Of a DNA stretch of 64,000 nucleotides, positions 31,581-62,987 are shown piece after piece. Numbering within the stretch: the stretch's first letter is position 1; every line of letters starts with the position of its first letter. Below the pieces are notes generated by a model. It had not been told where the DNA came from, searched no databases, and saw nothing but the letters and a program-made list of their open reading frames with translations. The position numbers and the translations under genes are program-made. The stretch lies in the NCBI RefSeq assembly GCF_009914755.1, contig NC_060928.1; one strand, 5' to 3'. The stretch comes from the human T2T-CHM13v2.0 reference genome, Homo sapiens.

Positions 31581-31654
31581 AGGGTGGTGCAAAAGTGATC
31601 GTGGTTTTTGCAATTTTTTAATGACAAAAACCACAATTACTTTTGCACCAACCT
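31581..31654 (+). ncRNA. MIR548T: MIR548T precursor hairpin (MADE1 MITE-derived, intronic)
   Basis: Near-perfect inverted repeat. The 5p arm CAAAAGTGATCGTGGTTTTTG (31590-31610) and 3p arm AAAAACCACAATTACTTTTGCACCA (31626-31650) match miR-548t as I recall it. The miR-548 family is known to derive from MADE1. Confidence 0.85.
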
Positions 31655-57470: not shown

Positions 57471-58817
57471 GTGTGAAATACAAGGAAGCCAGAAGGTATT
57501 GGATGCACCATTTCCCCCTTTGGTCCATGGTAACCAAGAATCAAAACTTGAAACATAGGCCATCAATTCATTTCTGTCCATAAAAACTTAAGATGTGTTT
57601 AACTTGTATATGCAAAAAATCCTCCTAATGGAATTCAAAAAGGCTTTAAAAAAATAATTTAGGACTGCACTGGACTTTAAAAAAGAGGATAAAGGCTTTT
57701 TTTTTTTTTAAGTTGAAGGGAAAATTACTCAGGTTTTCTGAGGGGAAAAAACATGATTAAGCACGAGAATTTTATTTATAATACTTATTAAAACTGGGTA
57801 CCAAAATAGAAAGTTTTTTTTCTCAATTCCAGATACCCACGTGTATCTTACTAATAATAAATGCCCTAAAATGAGTAAAATATTAAGTATACAGTCTGAT
57901 TTGCCCATTTAGCCACTAACTCATCTCTAAATACAGCAATTTTCCTGTGATTGCATATTCATGGGCCAAATTTTTAAACAATTTTAAAACAATTGAGGAC
58001 AATGCTTGTGTCCTCAAGAAGCATCTTTTAAATGATCTGCAGCTCATTCTGACCGTGGTGAGCTAATTTCATGGGCTCATAGTGATACAAACAAAAGCTG
58101 TTCTCTTGTAATGGGAAGCCAAAGATGGAAATTTTGCCAAATGTGTCTGGTTTTTATAACACAAAACTTCCTCTACTAAATTACAAACACATATATACAT
58201 ATATGTATGTATAATTAGAATTATATTTATAATGTATAATTATACACTTGATGCTTAAGATAAAGAGAAAATGAGATTTTTTTCTTATTTGCCAACTTGG
58301 TGGGAACCATATTCATCATACCAAGGTTACAGCTTTCAACACTGATTGTGGTTGGGGAAAGATGTCCCAGAAAAAAATGTTAAATAACCTATACCCTGTG
58401 TGGATTCCAGTGCAATTGTATAGTATTGTTAGTAGGCAGTGCATCTTCAGAAACCCTAACCATTGCTTCTGTCAACAGCAAACAAAATGTTGTTCCTGAA
58501 AGCGTTCAGATTTGACATTAACATGTGAACAGGAACAAAAATTTTAATATGTCTTAAAACCTTAACTGTCAATTCGAATAATCATTGTTTAGAAGGGTGT
58601 TTGATAATTCTCAGACTAACCAGTTCTCTGTAGGCATAGTAAACTCAAAATTAACTTAAATAATATACTTCGCCTTCCTTCTTGATAAAACGTGCAATCT
58701 GGTCCATGTAAAATTACTGTCTACCCAATGCACCTGTATTCTTGTTTCCTGAGAAAAATAATAACTAATTGGTTTCTATTCGTCTAATTTATAATATCGA
58801 TTGATTTTTCTTAACAG

Positions 58818-58948
58818 AACACTTAAAAGAAAAACTGGATGAATATATTAAGCTGTGGAATGGCCTAGTGAAGGTATTTCGAAATGAAAGAAGGGAAGGT
58901 TTAATTCAAGCACGAAGTATTGGTGCTCAGAAGGCTAAACTTGGACAG
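58818..58948 (+). CDS. GALNT7: GALNT7 coding exon 4 (131 nt)
   Basis: Acceptor ttcttaacag| and donor CAG|gtagga. Manual translation (E)HLKEKLDEYIKLWNGLVKVFRNERREGLIQARSIGAQKAKLGQ includes the REGLI.AR..GA motif. Not in the ORF track. Confidence 0.96.
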
Positions 58949-60110: not shown

Positions 60111-61216
60111 AAGTTTACACTGCACCATGTATTTAGGAATGTGAAAATCATAAGTGAGGACAGTTAACTGACCAAGTGTCAGGTAACTTTCTCTAGGTGA
60201 ATACCAGCAGGCTTCTGGGCAGTGAGGAAGTGGTTTTCCAGATTCCAGTGGCAGATTCCACAAATCTGACAATGACCCTCCAGTTCACACTCTGGAGAGA
60301 AGGAAGCATCTTTCTGGACTTTACTTCCTCCATATTAAAGTTCTAAGCACTGTAGGTTTTCCCTTTTCCTTGGTTTTTAAACTTCTGAAAAGCAGCTTGA
60401 CCTGGATATAAAAAGCTGTCATTTTCATTTTAGGAAAATAGATTTTAAAATCCTTTCTGACGAGATGAACATTGTAACAAGCAGGGTACCAGATAATCTT
60501 TGTAATGTCACTTTGACATCTAATTGGTTATAGAGTACTAGCATTTTCGTGAAGCCCAAATATAAGAGATTTTTTGATCCAAATTCTCAGACCACTTCTG
60601 AAGTTCTTCAGCAAGTTTTGAGGGATTTTTTTTGCTTTTTTTTTTTAAAGCAACAATACCTTTTTTTTTTGTTTGTTTTGCAATAAAAGCTGTTTTCTGC
60701 AGTTAGAGGAGTGAGGAAGATCAAGTAAAAGTACAGAAACACATTTTCATAACTGTTCCCAAGAAATAGCAACAAAGGGTTGAGAGAACCGCTAAGAATG
60801 TGGCAAGTACTATCTGTGACCCCACACACACGCACACGCATGCACACGCACACGTGAGCTTTTTCATGGGTGATAGGGAAAATAACAGGCAAGAAAATCT
60901 TATAAATAAGGTAAAATTACCAAAAGAAAGTTGCCTTTAGGACCAAAGCGAAAAGGAGAAAACTCTATTAAGCTCAGTGATATAGTTCTTTGTCCCTGAC
61001 ATTTGTCTGTAAGCCTAGGGGGAAGTCTCCTCTCTCCTGCCCTTACGTAAACAGGCTTTTCGGCTTTTATGGGACATTCATTTACTCTATTTCCCATTAG
61101 ATATTAAAGTCCCCTAGTGCACAAACAAATCAACAACAAAAAGAGATAACGTAGTTAGGCATGCTGAACTAGTCTTGGGTTCTTAAATGCTTTTTCATTT
61201 TCTGTAAATGTTTCAG

Positions 61217-61399
61217 AACTACATGTACTGTGCCTCTAATAGATTACATAGATGGGAATGATTATTCCATTGAACCACAGCAAGGTGGGGATGAAGATGG
61301 TTTTGCCAGAGGGGCCTGGGACTGGAGTTTACTATGGAAACGTATTCCTCTAAGCCACAAGGAAAAGGCCAAAAGAAAACATAAAACTGAACCTTATCG
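61217..61399 (+). CDS. GALNT7: GALNT7 alternative exon 6 (upstream paralogous copy, '6a', 183 nt); candidate mutually exclusive exon
   Basis: Acceptor gtttcag| and donor CG|gtaaag. Translates (R)TTCTVPLIDYIDGNDYSIEPQQGGDEDGFARGAWDWSLLWKRIPLSHKEKAKRKHKTEPY(R) with no stops or indels. Same length and phase (2/2) as 61537-61719. Not in the ORF track. Confidence 0.88.
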
Positions 61400-61434
61400 G
61401 TAAAGACTATTACTTTATTTTCTTATGTTGAATG

Positions 61435-61536
61435 TTTATCTAAGTTCTTTTTTTTTTCTTCCCCATGAACTCGTATAAATGTGTGGGTCCATACATACGC
61501 TTCCATTTGATCTTTGCTGCCATCAACACAATACAG
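61435..61536 (+). promoter_or_regulatory. Candidate distant branch point, polypyrimidine tract and AG-exclusion zone for exon 6b
   Basis: TTTAT/CTAAG (A at 61438 or 61443) is directly followed by a pyrimidine run at 61445-61464. There is no AG from 61445 until the acceptor at 61535-61536, and the sequence next to the acceptor (catcaacacaatacag) lacks a U-rich tract. Confidence 0.6.
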
Positions 61537-61719
61537 AACCATTTGCACTGTGCCGCTTATAGATGTCATAAATGGCAACACATATGAAATTATACCCCAA
61601 GGGGGTGGTGATGAAGATGGGTATGCCCGAGGAGCATGGGATTGGAGTATGCTCTGGAAACGGGTGCCTCTGACCCCTCAAGAGAAGAGACTGAGAAAGA
61701 CAAAAACTGAACCGTATCG
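61537..61719 (+). CDS. GALNT7: GALNT7 exon 6 (downstream copy, '6b', 183 nt; the version in the reference protein as I recall it)
   Basis: Acceptor aatacag| and donor CG|gtaatc. Translates (R)TICTVPLIDVINGNTYEIIPQGGGDEDGYARGAWDWSMLWKRVPLTPQEKRLRKTKTEPY(R), in frame with exon 5. Confidence 0.95.
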
Positions 61720-62987
61720 GTAATCACTAAATCACTTACATATTTTTCTTTTCTCCAGTTGCTGCTAACCTATTAACCTCTTGCCAAGCTAAAGATTCGT
61801 TATTAAAACTGTAGATGTTGTCTCAGATTCTGAAAGAACATCTTTCCTTACACTGTTTCAGAGCTTTCAATCTGCTCCATTTGCTCCATTGTAATTGCTT
61901 TTACCCTAAATGTGATGTCCACTACTGAGACGTACACACTTTCATTGGGGAAAGAAAAATAATGTAACATGGCATTTGTTCCACGTACAAGTGAAAAAAA
62001 GATAAAATCTTAGTTATCCTGTCCTACTGGATTAGACATCAAATTTTATTCTTTTGATGACAGTGTCATTCTATAAATTTAAAATACATAAATTACTTTA
62101 ATCCAACCAAGACTTTTATTTCCACGTTCATGCCGTGGGTATAATGTTAACAATGAAGGGCACTAGCAAGAGATTTCTGGGTTTTTCTCCCCTTTTGCTG
62201 TTATGTTAACTCTCAAATACTAATTTTGTACTAGTTAAATCTGATGAATCACAATACATGACTTTAAAAAATGTTACATAGAATCCTTTATTGCTTCATT
62301 CTCAGAAAAGTGATTGATTAAAAGAAAACTCTATTCAAAAATCAGCTTTTGTCCCTTCTTGTGGTTCTTTCAGTAGAACAACTTATGCTACTCTCTTCTT
62401 TTGATCTTGTAATTAGAACATTTTACTGTCTCTGTAAAAAGTGACCCCAAATGAAATGTTTGCTCAAGTGTTAGTATAGCCTTCTCCTGAATGTGTCTAA
62501 TCTTATTTTTCTGATCCTATGGTTCTGCTTTTGGTCTCTCTCTCCCTGTTACACTGCTGGTGATGTTAGAACTCTGTTTTGGGAAGGTGCTTCCAATGTT
62601 ATGGAAACGCTGTGGGATTTGGGCATGTCATGATATCAAGATACTGAATGGCAAACATAAAGAAGTTATAGCACTTAATTAATCATAGTAGCTTAATTGG
62701 ACATTTACCAAATTTTTTTTGGTAAATTTCTTATTCAGAATAGTCCAGGAATCAACTGCTTACGTGCTTAACTTAACAAATAACTGTGGGAGAAAAAAAA
62801 TAAAGGGTGCTGAGCAAATTTATATTTCTGTTAATTCCATAGGCCAGTAAAGAAAATTTTTAAAGTGACCTAGAAAAATTAAAGGGAGGTTATCTGTTGA
62901 TTAACTCACTGGTGACCATGTTAAGATGCATTTTCAAGTATATACTGAGATGAATGGGAACATATTTGAAGAAAAATAAACCCAGCT

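What the first reader, a model, noticed from the sequence alone, without database searches (positions are those of the whole stretch)
61400..61536. The 137-nt spacer looks built for steric exclusion: a distant branch point about 40 nt from the 6a donor
Seen: the long U-rich tract (61445-61464) lies ~70-90 nt upstream of the 6b acceptor, directly after branch-like TTTAT/CTAAG (A at 61438 or 61443, the 39th and 44th intron bases). No AG occurs from 61445 until the acceptor. Established: in alpha-tropomyosin exons 2/3, a branch point ~41 nt from the upstream 5' splice site physically prevents the two exons being joined. Inference: both exons are multiples of 3, so NMD cannot remove double inclusion, and this geometry would supply the exclusivity instead.
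Basis: partly seen in the sequence, partly recalled or inferred. Interest (0 to 1): 0.78.

Follow-up and report, generated by a model that had tools for sequence, protein, structure and literature searches.

The report
GALNT7 exon 6a/6b distant branch point
The short intron between two alternative copies of GALNT7 exon 6 appears to use a branch point so close to the first copy's splice donor that the two copies probably cannot be joined, a known trick (tropomyosin, OGDH) seen here in one more gene.

Summary
GALNT7 exons 6a (61217-61399) and 6b (61537-61719) are both 183 nt. They are separated by a 137-nt GT-AG intron.

- **Spacer layout:** the intron carries TTTAT/CTAAG at 61435-61444, a 20-nt pyrimidine run with T10 at 61445-61464, and no AG from 61445 to the acceptor.
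- **Reading frame:** including both exons stays in frame with no stop codon.
- **Branch point:** a public lariat-read catalogue (Pineda and Bradley 2018, hg19) lists one at chr4:174219170. I map this to window 61440-61441, the 41st-42nd intron base, about 95 nt upstream of the 6b acceptor. No row falls in the proximal part of the intron in the files I could search.
- **Known parallel:** in the human TPM1 exon 2/3 spacer, fetched here, the known GGCUAAC branch A is the 42nd intron base, and the pyrimidine run starts at the next base.

Still inferred: that this distance, below the roughly 50-nt threshold proposed in the literature, is what keeps 6a and 6b from being joined. I did not see the lariat's 5' splice-site partner. 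A weak proximal candidate (TTGAT, A61510) exists. No vertebrate comparison was possible.

Verdict: a new member of a known kind, of moderate interest.

The parts
61217..61399 (+). GALNT7 exon 6a, the alternative copy (183 nt, 60 whole codons plus split codons)
   Evidence: The hub annotation lists it as an exon of other transcripts. Its frame is open; it is 128/183 nt and 44/60 aa identical to 6b. It is listed as a tandem-duplication substitution event, ENST00000505308, last common ancestor Vertebrata.
61400..61408 (+). 5' splice site of exon 6a (TCG|GTAAAGACT). It is U2-type and lacks G at +5.
61435..61444 (+). Branch-site cluster TTTATCTAAG, with A61438, A61442 and A61443. The lariat-derived branch call falls at 61440-61441 (41st-42nd intron base).
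   Evidence: Candidate table. The Pineda and Bradley row is; it was mapped through. A mapped branch point of the same CTAAG type (HTR4 exon 3, cactaAgca) appears in Corvelo 2010, Table 1.
61445..61464 (+). Branch-associated polypyrimidine tract TTCTTTTTTTTTTCTTCCCC (20/20 pyrimidines, 14 U). This is the presumed U2AF65 site. It contains UCUU-type motifs.
   Evidence: It is the best 20-nt pyrimidine window within 100 nt of any of the six acceptors in the window.
61445..61534 (+). AG-free zone between the distant branch site and the 6b acceptor (90 nt)
61506..61512 (+). Rival proximal branch candidate ATTTGAT (A61510, 26 nt from the 3' splice site). It is the only adenine 10-45 nt from the acceptor with U at -2.
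   Evidence: It is followed by a poor tract (Y 0.62, U 0.29). No catalogue row was found in this part of the intron.
61535..61536 (+). 3' splice-site AG of exon 6b, preceded by the purine-rich CAACACAATAC
61537..61719 (+). GALNT7 exon 6b, the copy in the selected RefSeq transcript NM_017423.3 (183 nt)
   Evidence: Hub annotation. Its peptide is identical to residues 263-322 of the solved GalNAc-T7 chains 6iwq/6iwr.

Best explanation
GALNT7 exons 6a and 6b are a tandem-duplicated, mutually exclusive pair. Exon 6b is spliced through a distant branch site at about 61438-61443, which sits directly upstream of a strong U-rich pyrimidine tract (61445-61464). After lariat formation, the first usable AG downstream is the 6b acceptor, 92 nt further on.

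This branch site lies only 39-44 nt from the 6a donor. That is below the roughly 50 nt proposed as necessary for U1 and U2 complexes to assemble on one intron. So the 137-nt spacer cannot be removed as an intron of its own, and 6a cannot be joined to 6b.

A transcript therefore takes one of two routes:
- exon 5 to 6b, with 6a removed inside the lariat;
- exon 5 to 6a, then 6a to exon 7, with 6b skipped.

The stronger tract of 6b (20/20 pyrimidines, against 15/20 for 6a) would make 6b the default.

What is shown: the sequence layout, the in-frame arithmetic, a lariat-derived branch call in the distant cluster, and the match to TPM1.

What is inferred: the steric block itself, the default choice by tract competition, and any regulation through the AG-free zone.
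For: - **Layout and statistics:**
- **Branch call:** the Pineda and Bradley 2018 supplementary file 3 has the row chr4:174219170 (+), score column 4 (annotations on hg19).
- **Mapping, route A:** GRCh38 exon coordinates from the Martinez-Gomez 2021 supplement, plus an hg19-hg38 offset of 921,151 that I recalled, give window 61441.
- **Mapping, route B:** hsa-miR-548t at chr4:174189311-174189384 (table in PMC4121995), against MIR548T at 31581-31654 in the hub annotation, gives window 61440.
- **Distal versus proximal rows:** the prefix 1742191 (window 61370-61469) occurred 12 times, about 3 rows of 4 numbers. The prefix 1742192 (window 61470-61569) occurred 0 times.
- **Threshold and precedents from passages I read:**
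  - OGDH 4a/4b distant branch points lie 25-41 nt from the 5' splice site, in a 118-131-nt intron, 'below a proposed steric threshold of ~50 nts'.
  - Hatje 2017 used under 50 bp and found 57 of 629 clusters.
  - Branch points sit at the 5' end of AG-free zones, up to 7-8 nt upstream of the defining AG.
- **Positive control:** in the human TPM1 spacer (195 nt) the branch A is the 42nd base, a 28-nt pyrimidine run starts at the 43rd base, and there is no AG before the acceptor.
- **Other mechanisms tested and not found:**
  - NMD: 0 stops in the double-inclusion frame.
  - U12 incompatibility: all donors are GTA-type and U2-like.
  - RNA structure: z = -0.05 for the spacer and +2.0 for 641 nt.
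Against: - The catalogue row shows neither the 5' splice-site partner nor the confidence class. The score of 4 is probably a read count, but I did not see the file legend.
- The called base is C61440 or U61441, not an adenine.
- The supplementary file was cut when stored and file 1 was not searched, so the absence of proximal rows is weak evidence.
- Pineda and Bradley state that most introns use several branch points and are undersampled. Corvelo 2010 mapped canonical-position branch points alongside distant ones in introns with long AG-free zones.
- A proximal yUnAy candidate exists (A61510), and TACATAC (A61497) pairs well with U2. A leak through these would allow 6a-6b joining.
- Taggart 2017 had no row for this intron.
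- I saw no read-level data on 6a+6b transcripts, no proteomic support for the 6a isoform, and no cross-species sequence.
Confidence: 0.65

Rival explanations
1. Exon 6b mainly uses a conventional proximal branch point (A61510 TTGAT at -26, or A61497). The spacer could then be spliced out. Exclusivity would come from low or reciprocally regulated use of 6a through trans-acting factors, and the U-rich tract would be incidental.
For: A61510 matches yUnAy 3/3 at a canonical distance. A61497 TACATAC has the best U2 pairing score in the canonical zone. About 96% of predicted human branch points lie between -15 and -55. Several branch points per intron are the rule. The 6a isoform has no proteomic support, so rare 6a use alone could make double inclusion rare.
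Against: No catalogue row falls in window 61470-61569, whereas about 3 rows fall in 61370-61469. The proximal tract is the weakest of the six acceptors. The 90-nt AG-free zone and the 20/20 pyrimidine run at its 5' end would be unexplained.
Confidence: 0.2
2. The U-rich tract 45-65 nt downstream of the weak 6a donor acts mainly as an intronic regulator of 6a. It could enhance through U-binding proteins such as TIA-1/TIAR, or silence through PTB. It would not be the branch-associated tract of 6b.
For: The 6a donor lacks G at +5. In OGDH, TIA-1/TIAR and PUF60 reciprocally control the exon pair through U-rich sequence in the same position. The tract contains UCUU-type motifs.
Against: This reading is compatible with the best explanation rather than an alternative to it. 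It explains neither the AG-free zone nor the lariat call directly upstream of the tract. No binding data were examined.
Confidence: 0.1
3. Exclusivity is set by competing RNA structures (docking and selector sites), or by a hairpin that hides one exon.
For: This mechanism is known in insects and has been proposed for a few human clusters.
Against: The spacer folds no better than shuffles: -15.9 kcal/mol, z = -0.05, with 95 of 200 shuffles folding at least as well. The 641-nt region folds worse than shuffles: z = +2.0, with 20 of 20 shuffles at least as stable. Only 641 nt were tested; distant intronic partners were not.
Confidence: 0.03

Closest known systems
TPM1 (alpha-tropomyosin) exons 2/3 (Smith and Nadal-Ginard 1989). 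I did not read that paper. I saw it in reference lists and as summarised in Gooding 2013, PMC3643581.
   Same: Both are tandem homologous exons separated by a short spacer. The branch site of the downstream exon lies about 42 nt into the spacer: the human TPM1 branch A is the 42nd base, and the GALNT7 call is at the 41st-42nd base with adenines at the 39th, 43rd and 44th. A long unbroken pyrimidine run starts 1-3 nt after it. No AG occurs from there to the acceptor. The downstream exon with the stronger tract is the default.
   Different: - TPM1's spacer is 195 nt and GC-rich, with a CU-rich tract and many UGC/CUG motifs (4 TGC and 10 CTG in its tail). GALNT7's is 137 nt and AT-rich, with a U10 tract and only 2 TGC and 1 CTG.
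- TPM1's block has been shown by experiment. GALNT7's has not.
- TPM1's exons are 126 nt; GALNT7's are 183 nt.
OGDH exons 4a/4b (Kralovicova et al. 2021, PMC7969005; passages and section 25 read)
   Same: Both are in-frame-type duplicated exons. The spacer is 118-131 nt in birds and mammals (137 nt here). Distant branch adenines lie 25-41 nt from the upstream 5' splice site. Both have a long U-rich 'megaPPT' and an AG-free zone. The upstream copy uses a canonical branch point and the downstream copy a distant one.
   Different: OGDH has a mapped cluster of four branch adenines, tested regulators, and a documented intron-size restriction across vertebrates. None of these is known for GALNT7. 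That paper linked the layout to Ca2+-regulated and mitochondrial proteins; GALNT7 is a Golgi glycosyltransferase (named in the hub annotation; Golgi location recalled).
Genome-wide predictions of sterically hindered mutually exclusive exons: Hatje et al. 2017 (57 of 629 clusters) and Kralovicova 2021 (41 introns of 60-500 nt)
   Same: They use the same criterion: a predicted branch point under 50 nt from the donor of the upstream exon.
   Different: In the Martinez-Gomez 2021 table the GALNT7 event is not flagged as present in Hatje et al. It is flagged as present in Lam et al.. GALNT7 was absent from the 3 readable Hatje supplements and from the one readable Kralovicova supplement. The main lists (.xls, PDF, Table S6) could not be read, so I cannot exclude that GALNT7 appears there.

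Membership tests
Distant-branch-point, sterically enforced mutually exclusive exon pair (TPM1 2/3 and OGDH 4a/4b type) | Two adjacent homologous alternative exons of equal length and phase | tested here: met
   Both exons are 183 nt and share the same frame. They are 44/60 aa and 128/183 nt identical. In the whole genome the 6b peptide matches only itself, 6a, and one distant exon. The event is listed as a tandem-duplication substitution event.
Distant-branch-point, sterically enforced mutually exclusive exon pair (TPM1 2/3 and OGDH 4a/4b type) | [quoted passage not shown] | tested here: met
   The lariat-derived row at hg19 chr4:174219170 maps to the 41st-42nd intron base. Caveats: the 5' partner and confidence class were not seen; the called base is not A; one step of one mapping route is recalled.
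Distant-branch-point, sterically enforced mutually exclusive exon pair (TPM1 2/3 and OGDH 4a/4b type) | A strong pyrimidine tract directly downstream of the distant branch site, and an AG-free stretch from there to the acceptor | tested here: met
   A 20/20 pyrimidine run runs from the 46th to the 65th base. There is no AG in 61445-61534.
Distant-branch-point, sterically enforced mutually exclusive exon pair (TPM1 2/3 and OGDH 4a/4b type) | No efficient branch point further than about 50 nt from the upstream donor | tested here: inconclusive
   The proximal tract is the weakest of six acceptors, and no catalogue rows fall there. But the candidates A61510 and A61497 exist, and the catalogue file was incomplete.
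Distant-branch-point, sterically enforced mutually exclusive exon pair (TPM1 2/3 and OGDH 4a/4b type) | The two exons are not joined in mRNA, and lengthening the donor-to-branch distance allows joining | not testable with these tools
   This needs read-level RNA data and a minigene. The hub table shows only that the two exons belong to different transcripts.
NMD-enforced mutually exclusive exons | Double inclusion shifts the frame or creates a stop | tested here: not met
   183 = 3 x 61. Exon 5 + 6a + 6b has 0 stops in frame.
U2/U12 splice-site incompatibility | One flanking intron has U12-type signals | tested here: not met
   The donors of exon 5, 6a and 6b are GTAACA, GTAAAG and GTAATC. None resembles the U12 donor consensus, which I recalled. 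The exon 7 acceptor lies outside the window and was not checked.
Competing RNA secondary structure (docking/selector) | Stable, specific base pairing between intronic elements | tested here: inconclusive
   No excess stability: z = -0.05 for 137 nt and +2.0 for 641 nt. Distant partners and covariation could not be tested.

The most novel reading that the evidence does not exclude
GALNT7 6a/6b may be a purely sterically enforced, in-frame exon switch that has been kept since the vertebrate ancestor. On this reading the spacer is length-locked, as reported for OGDH intron 4a. The AG-free zone would hold a small repressor module (UCUU motifs in the tract, UGCUGCC at 61515-61521, UGUGUGGG at 61480-61487). 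That module would decide between two forms of the catalytic-domain segment of a glycopeptide-preferring GalNAc-transferase (substrate preference is from a reference title seen). This would extend the layout beyond the Ca2+-regulated and mitochondrial gene set to which Kralovicova et al. tied it.
Probability: 0.25. Interest if true: 0.55.

Novelty: new member of a known kind. Interest (0 to 1): 0.42.

Why it matters
It would explain how an in-frame exon pair that NMD cannot police avoids producing a GalNAc-T7 with a 61-residue duplication inside its catalytic domain.

It would add a case supported by lariat reads to the short list of human exon pairs where branch-point position alone enforces exclusivity.

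It has practical consequences:
- Variants or insertions in 61400-61445, or new AGs in 61445-61534, should be read as potentially splice-altering even though they lie far from the 6b acceptor.
- Studies that score GALNT7 'exon 6' as a simple cassette exon, such as the endometriosis study, should consider the 6a/6b switch.

The mechanism itself is textbook, so the gain is one well-defined instance rather than a new principle.

Tried and rejected
**Literature searches**
- GALNT7 with 'mutually exclusive' gave 30 papers, of which I saw 20 listed. With 'branch point' it gave 4, all irrelevant. With 'MXE' it gave 1. With 'branchpoints' or 'lariat' no paper held GALNT7. With the exon-duplication terms, none of the 15 papers listed (of 214) held GALNT7. 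None discusses the mechanism.
- One search was a poorly framed search and gave nothing useful.

**Supplements**
- Hatje 2017: no GALNT7 in the 3 readable files; the main .xls and PDF files are unreadable.
- Kralovicova 2021: one small file searched; Table S6 not seen.
- Martinez-Gomez 2022: no hit in one file.
- Taggart 2017: no GALNT7 and no coordinate hit in the files searched; file 1 was searched in neither call.
I therefore could not read the other two presumed rows, the 5' partner or the file legend in Pineda and Bradley.

**Coordinate check**
- A search for the expected hg19 exon boundaries found no paper.

**Sequence-only branch scoring**
- U2 pairing and yUnAy counts did not separate distal from proximal candidates: scores of 3-4 occur in both groups. 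I rejected this as a discriminator. Only the tract features differ.

**RNA structure**
- No support.

**Genome searches**
- A DNA-level search of the genome with 6b found only itself.
- The protein-level search found no second tandem pair.

**Not possible or not used**
- Vertebrate orthologues could not be fetched with the collections on hand, so conservation of spacing, spacer length and the AG-free zone was not tested.
- No structure prediction or complex prediction was run; none was needed.

Full report
**What is there**

The window is part of human GALNT7. Exon 6a (61217-61399) and exon 6b (61537-61719) are both 183 nt and share the same phase.
- They encode 60 whole codons that are 44/60 identical; the DNA is 128/183 identical.
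- Between them lies a 137-nt GT-AG intron (61400-61536).
A61438 in TTTAT is the 39th intron base. A61443 in CTAAG is the 44th. Bases 61445-61464 form an unbroken 20-nt pyrimidine run containing T10.
- The intron's only AGs have their A at 61404, 61443 and 61535, so 61445-61534 is AG-free.
- Exon 5 + 6a + 6b read in frame has no stop. Double inclusion would therefore not be an NMD substrate.

**Is it more than chance?**

- The AG-free stretch before 6b is the longest of the six annotated acceptors in the window: 92 nt from the previous AG to the acceptor AG, against 29-64 for the other five.
- 17 of 4470 AG-to-AG gaps on the + strand reach 92 nt.
- A first-order Markov model of the window gives AG-free 90-mers 0.08% of the time. 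Mononucleotide shuffles of the stretch itself are AG-free 5.1% of the time, so low G content explains part of the effect.
- The 6b acceptor has the poorest proximal pyrimidine tract of the six: Y 0.53, U 0.21.
- Its best 20-nt pyrimidine window (20/20 Y, 14 U) starts 92 nt from the intron end.
- The 6a acceptor is conventional. Its best window is 15/20 Y, starting 27 nt from the end, with branch-like TTCTTAAAT at -29 to -31.

**Branch-site prediction from sequence alone is not decisive**

Counting U2 pairing and yUnAy matches gives similar scores to distal candidates (A61438, A61443) and proximal ones (A61497, A61510). Only the downstream tract separates them. I therefore looked for experimental data.

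**Lariat evidence**

The Pineda and Bradley 2018 supplement contains the row 'chr4 174219169 174219170 4:174219170:174219170:+ 4 +'. Their annotations are on hg19/GRCh37. Branch points were called from lariat-spanning RNA-seq reads that carry a mismatch at the branch (passages).

I converted the coordinates by two routes.
- **Route A.** The Martinez-Gomez 2021 supplementary table gives GRCh38 chr4:173297795-173297977 for 6a and 173298115-173298297 for 6b. So window position = GRCh38 - 173,236,578. With an hg19-GRCh38 offset of 921,151, which I recalled and did not obtain from a call, the branch call is window 61441.
- **Route B.** A table in PMC4121995 gives hsa-miR-548t at chr4:174189311-174189384. 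That paper used miRBase 18; that this release is on GRCh37 is recalled. The hub annotation puts MIR548T at 31581-31654. This gives window 61440.

The two routes differ by 1 nt. A small indel between assemblies within 30 kb would account for that. A further check: a GRCh38 GALNT7 end of 173323967 agrees within 1 nt with the window annotation plus the offset.

What this shows:
- The call sits on the C or U of AUCUAAG.
- The prefix covering window 61370-61469 occurred 12 times, about three rows of four numbers. I saw only one row.
- The prefix covering 61470-61569 occurred 0 times.

Limits of this evidence:
- The file was cut when stored, and one file was not searched.
- I saw neither the file legend, the confidence class, nor the 5' splice-site partner.
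- The called base is not an adenine.
- Only 'score 4' supports it.
- Taggart 2017 has no row for this intron in the files searched.

**Comparison with the precedent, done here**

I located human TPM1 exons 2 and 3 in the same genome using a Pfam tropomyosin search and one fetched region.
- Their spacer is 195 nt.
- The branch motif GGCUAAC, quoted in Gooding 2013, has its branch A at the 42nd intron base.
- A 28-nt pyrimidine run starts at the 43rd base, and there is no AG before the acceptor.
- GALNT7 has its branch call at the 41st-42nd base, its pyrimidine run from the 46th base, and no AG thereafter. The geometry is nearly the same.

Passages I read state the following:
- The Tpm1 exon 3 branch point is close enough to exon 2 to prevent their joining, and the strong branch point and tract make exon 3 the default.
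- OGDH 4a/4b uses distant branch adenines 25-41 nt from the donor, in a 118-131-nt intron, below a proposed threshold of about 50 nt.
- Branch points tend to sit at the 5' end of AG-free zones, up to 7-8 nt upstream of the defining AG. A CTAAG-type branch (cactaAgca) was mapped in HTR4.
- An AG is only used as a 3' splice site if it lies more than 8-12 nt downstream of the branch. This explains why the AG at 61443-61444 is bypassed.

**Mechanism proposed**

U2AF and U2 assemble on the 61438-61464 branch/tract unit. The exon 5 donor can use it, removing 6a within the lariat and ligating to the first usable AG at 61535-61536. The 6a donor, only 39-44 nt away, cannot use it. When 6a is included, its donor must therefore pair with the exon 7 branch site, and 6b is skipped.

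The stronger tract of 6b would make it the default. This fits its presence in the selected RefSeq transcript and in the solved GalNAc-T7 structures 6iwq/6iwr.

Shown: the layout, the frame arithmetic, a lariat call in the distal cluster, and the match to TPM1. Inferred: the block itself, and the default choice by tract competition.

**Rivals**

- A proximal branch point (A61510 or A61497) could be used as well, or instead. It would permit 6a-6b joining.
- The tract could mainly regulate the weak 6a donor.
- RNA structure found no support: z = -0.05 for the spacer and +2.0 for 641 nt.
- U12 incompatibility and NMD are excluded by the sequence.

**What is known and what is new**

The exon pair is already catalogued. 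It is event 84 in Martinez-Gomez 2021, ENST00000265000 against ENST00000505308.
- It is an internal event with last common ancestor Vertebrata.
- It has no proteomic support and is not shared with paralogues.
- It is flagged as present in Lam et al. but not in Hatje et al.

The mechanism class is well known, and genome-wide predictions exist: 57 of 629 clusters in Hatje 2017, and 41 introns in Kralovicova 2021.

No paper found by my searches ties GALNT7 to a distant branch point. The gene lists behind those two screens could not be read, so prior listing cannot be excluded.

My verdict is a new member of a known kind. Its interest is moderate, and the functional step is still untested.

**Not done**

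I made no vertebrate comparison, because no collection on hand holds vertebrate DNA. I saw no RNA read-level data and no protein-binding data.

Noticed in passing
window 61480-61487 and 61515-61521: The AG-free zone between the distant tract and exon 6b holds UGUGUGGG and UGCUGCC (two overlapping YGCY motifs). In Tpm1, UGC clusters in the equivalent position bind MBNL and help PTB repress exon 3. In MXE introns, UG-rich tracts went with PUF60 responses. Here there are only 2 TGC and 1 CTG in 72 nt, so this may be chance.
   Followed up: partly
window 61217-61719 (GALNT7 'exon 6'): A 2026 endometriosis paper (PMC13039441; passages read) scores and deletes GALNT7 'exon 6' as a simple skipped exon. 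It does not mention the 6a/6b pair. Skipping both copies is in frame (183 nt), and a 6b-to-6a switch gives a product of the same size. Flanking-primer RT-PCR and rMATS SE calls at this locus may therefore need re-reading.
   Followed up: no
G000:C4:176152977-176153108 (+), locus L004, about 484 kb upstream of the window's exon 6: This is the only other genomic match to the 6b peptide (45% identity, E = 0.0028). It is presumably the homologous exon of the neighbouring paralogue; the name GALNTL6 is recalled, not from a call. No tandem second copy was reported there.
   Followed up: no
window 58731-58817 (intron before the exon starting at 58818): This acceptor also has its best 20-nt pyrimidine window far upstream: it starts 87 nt from the intron end with 16/20 Y. 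Its previous AG lies 64 nt before the acceptor AG, the second longest of the six. A somewhat distant branch site is possible here too.
   Followed up: no
window 61150-61790: The 641-nt region spanning both exons folds less stably than all 20 dinucleotide shuffles (z = +2.0). It is unusually unstructured for its composition.
   Followed up: no
window 61538-61717 versus 61218-61397: The solved GalNAc-T7 structures (6iwq, 6iwr) carry the 6b form at residues 263-322. No solved chain with the 6a form was returned. The 16 differing residues cluster at both ends of the segment, around a conserved GGDEDG.ARGAWDWS.LWKR core.
   Followed up: partly
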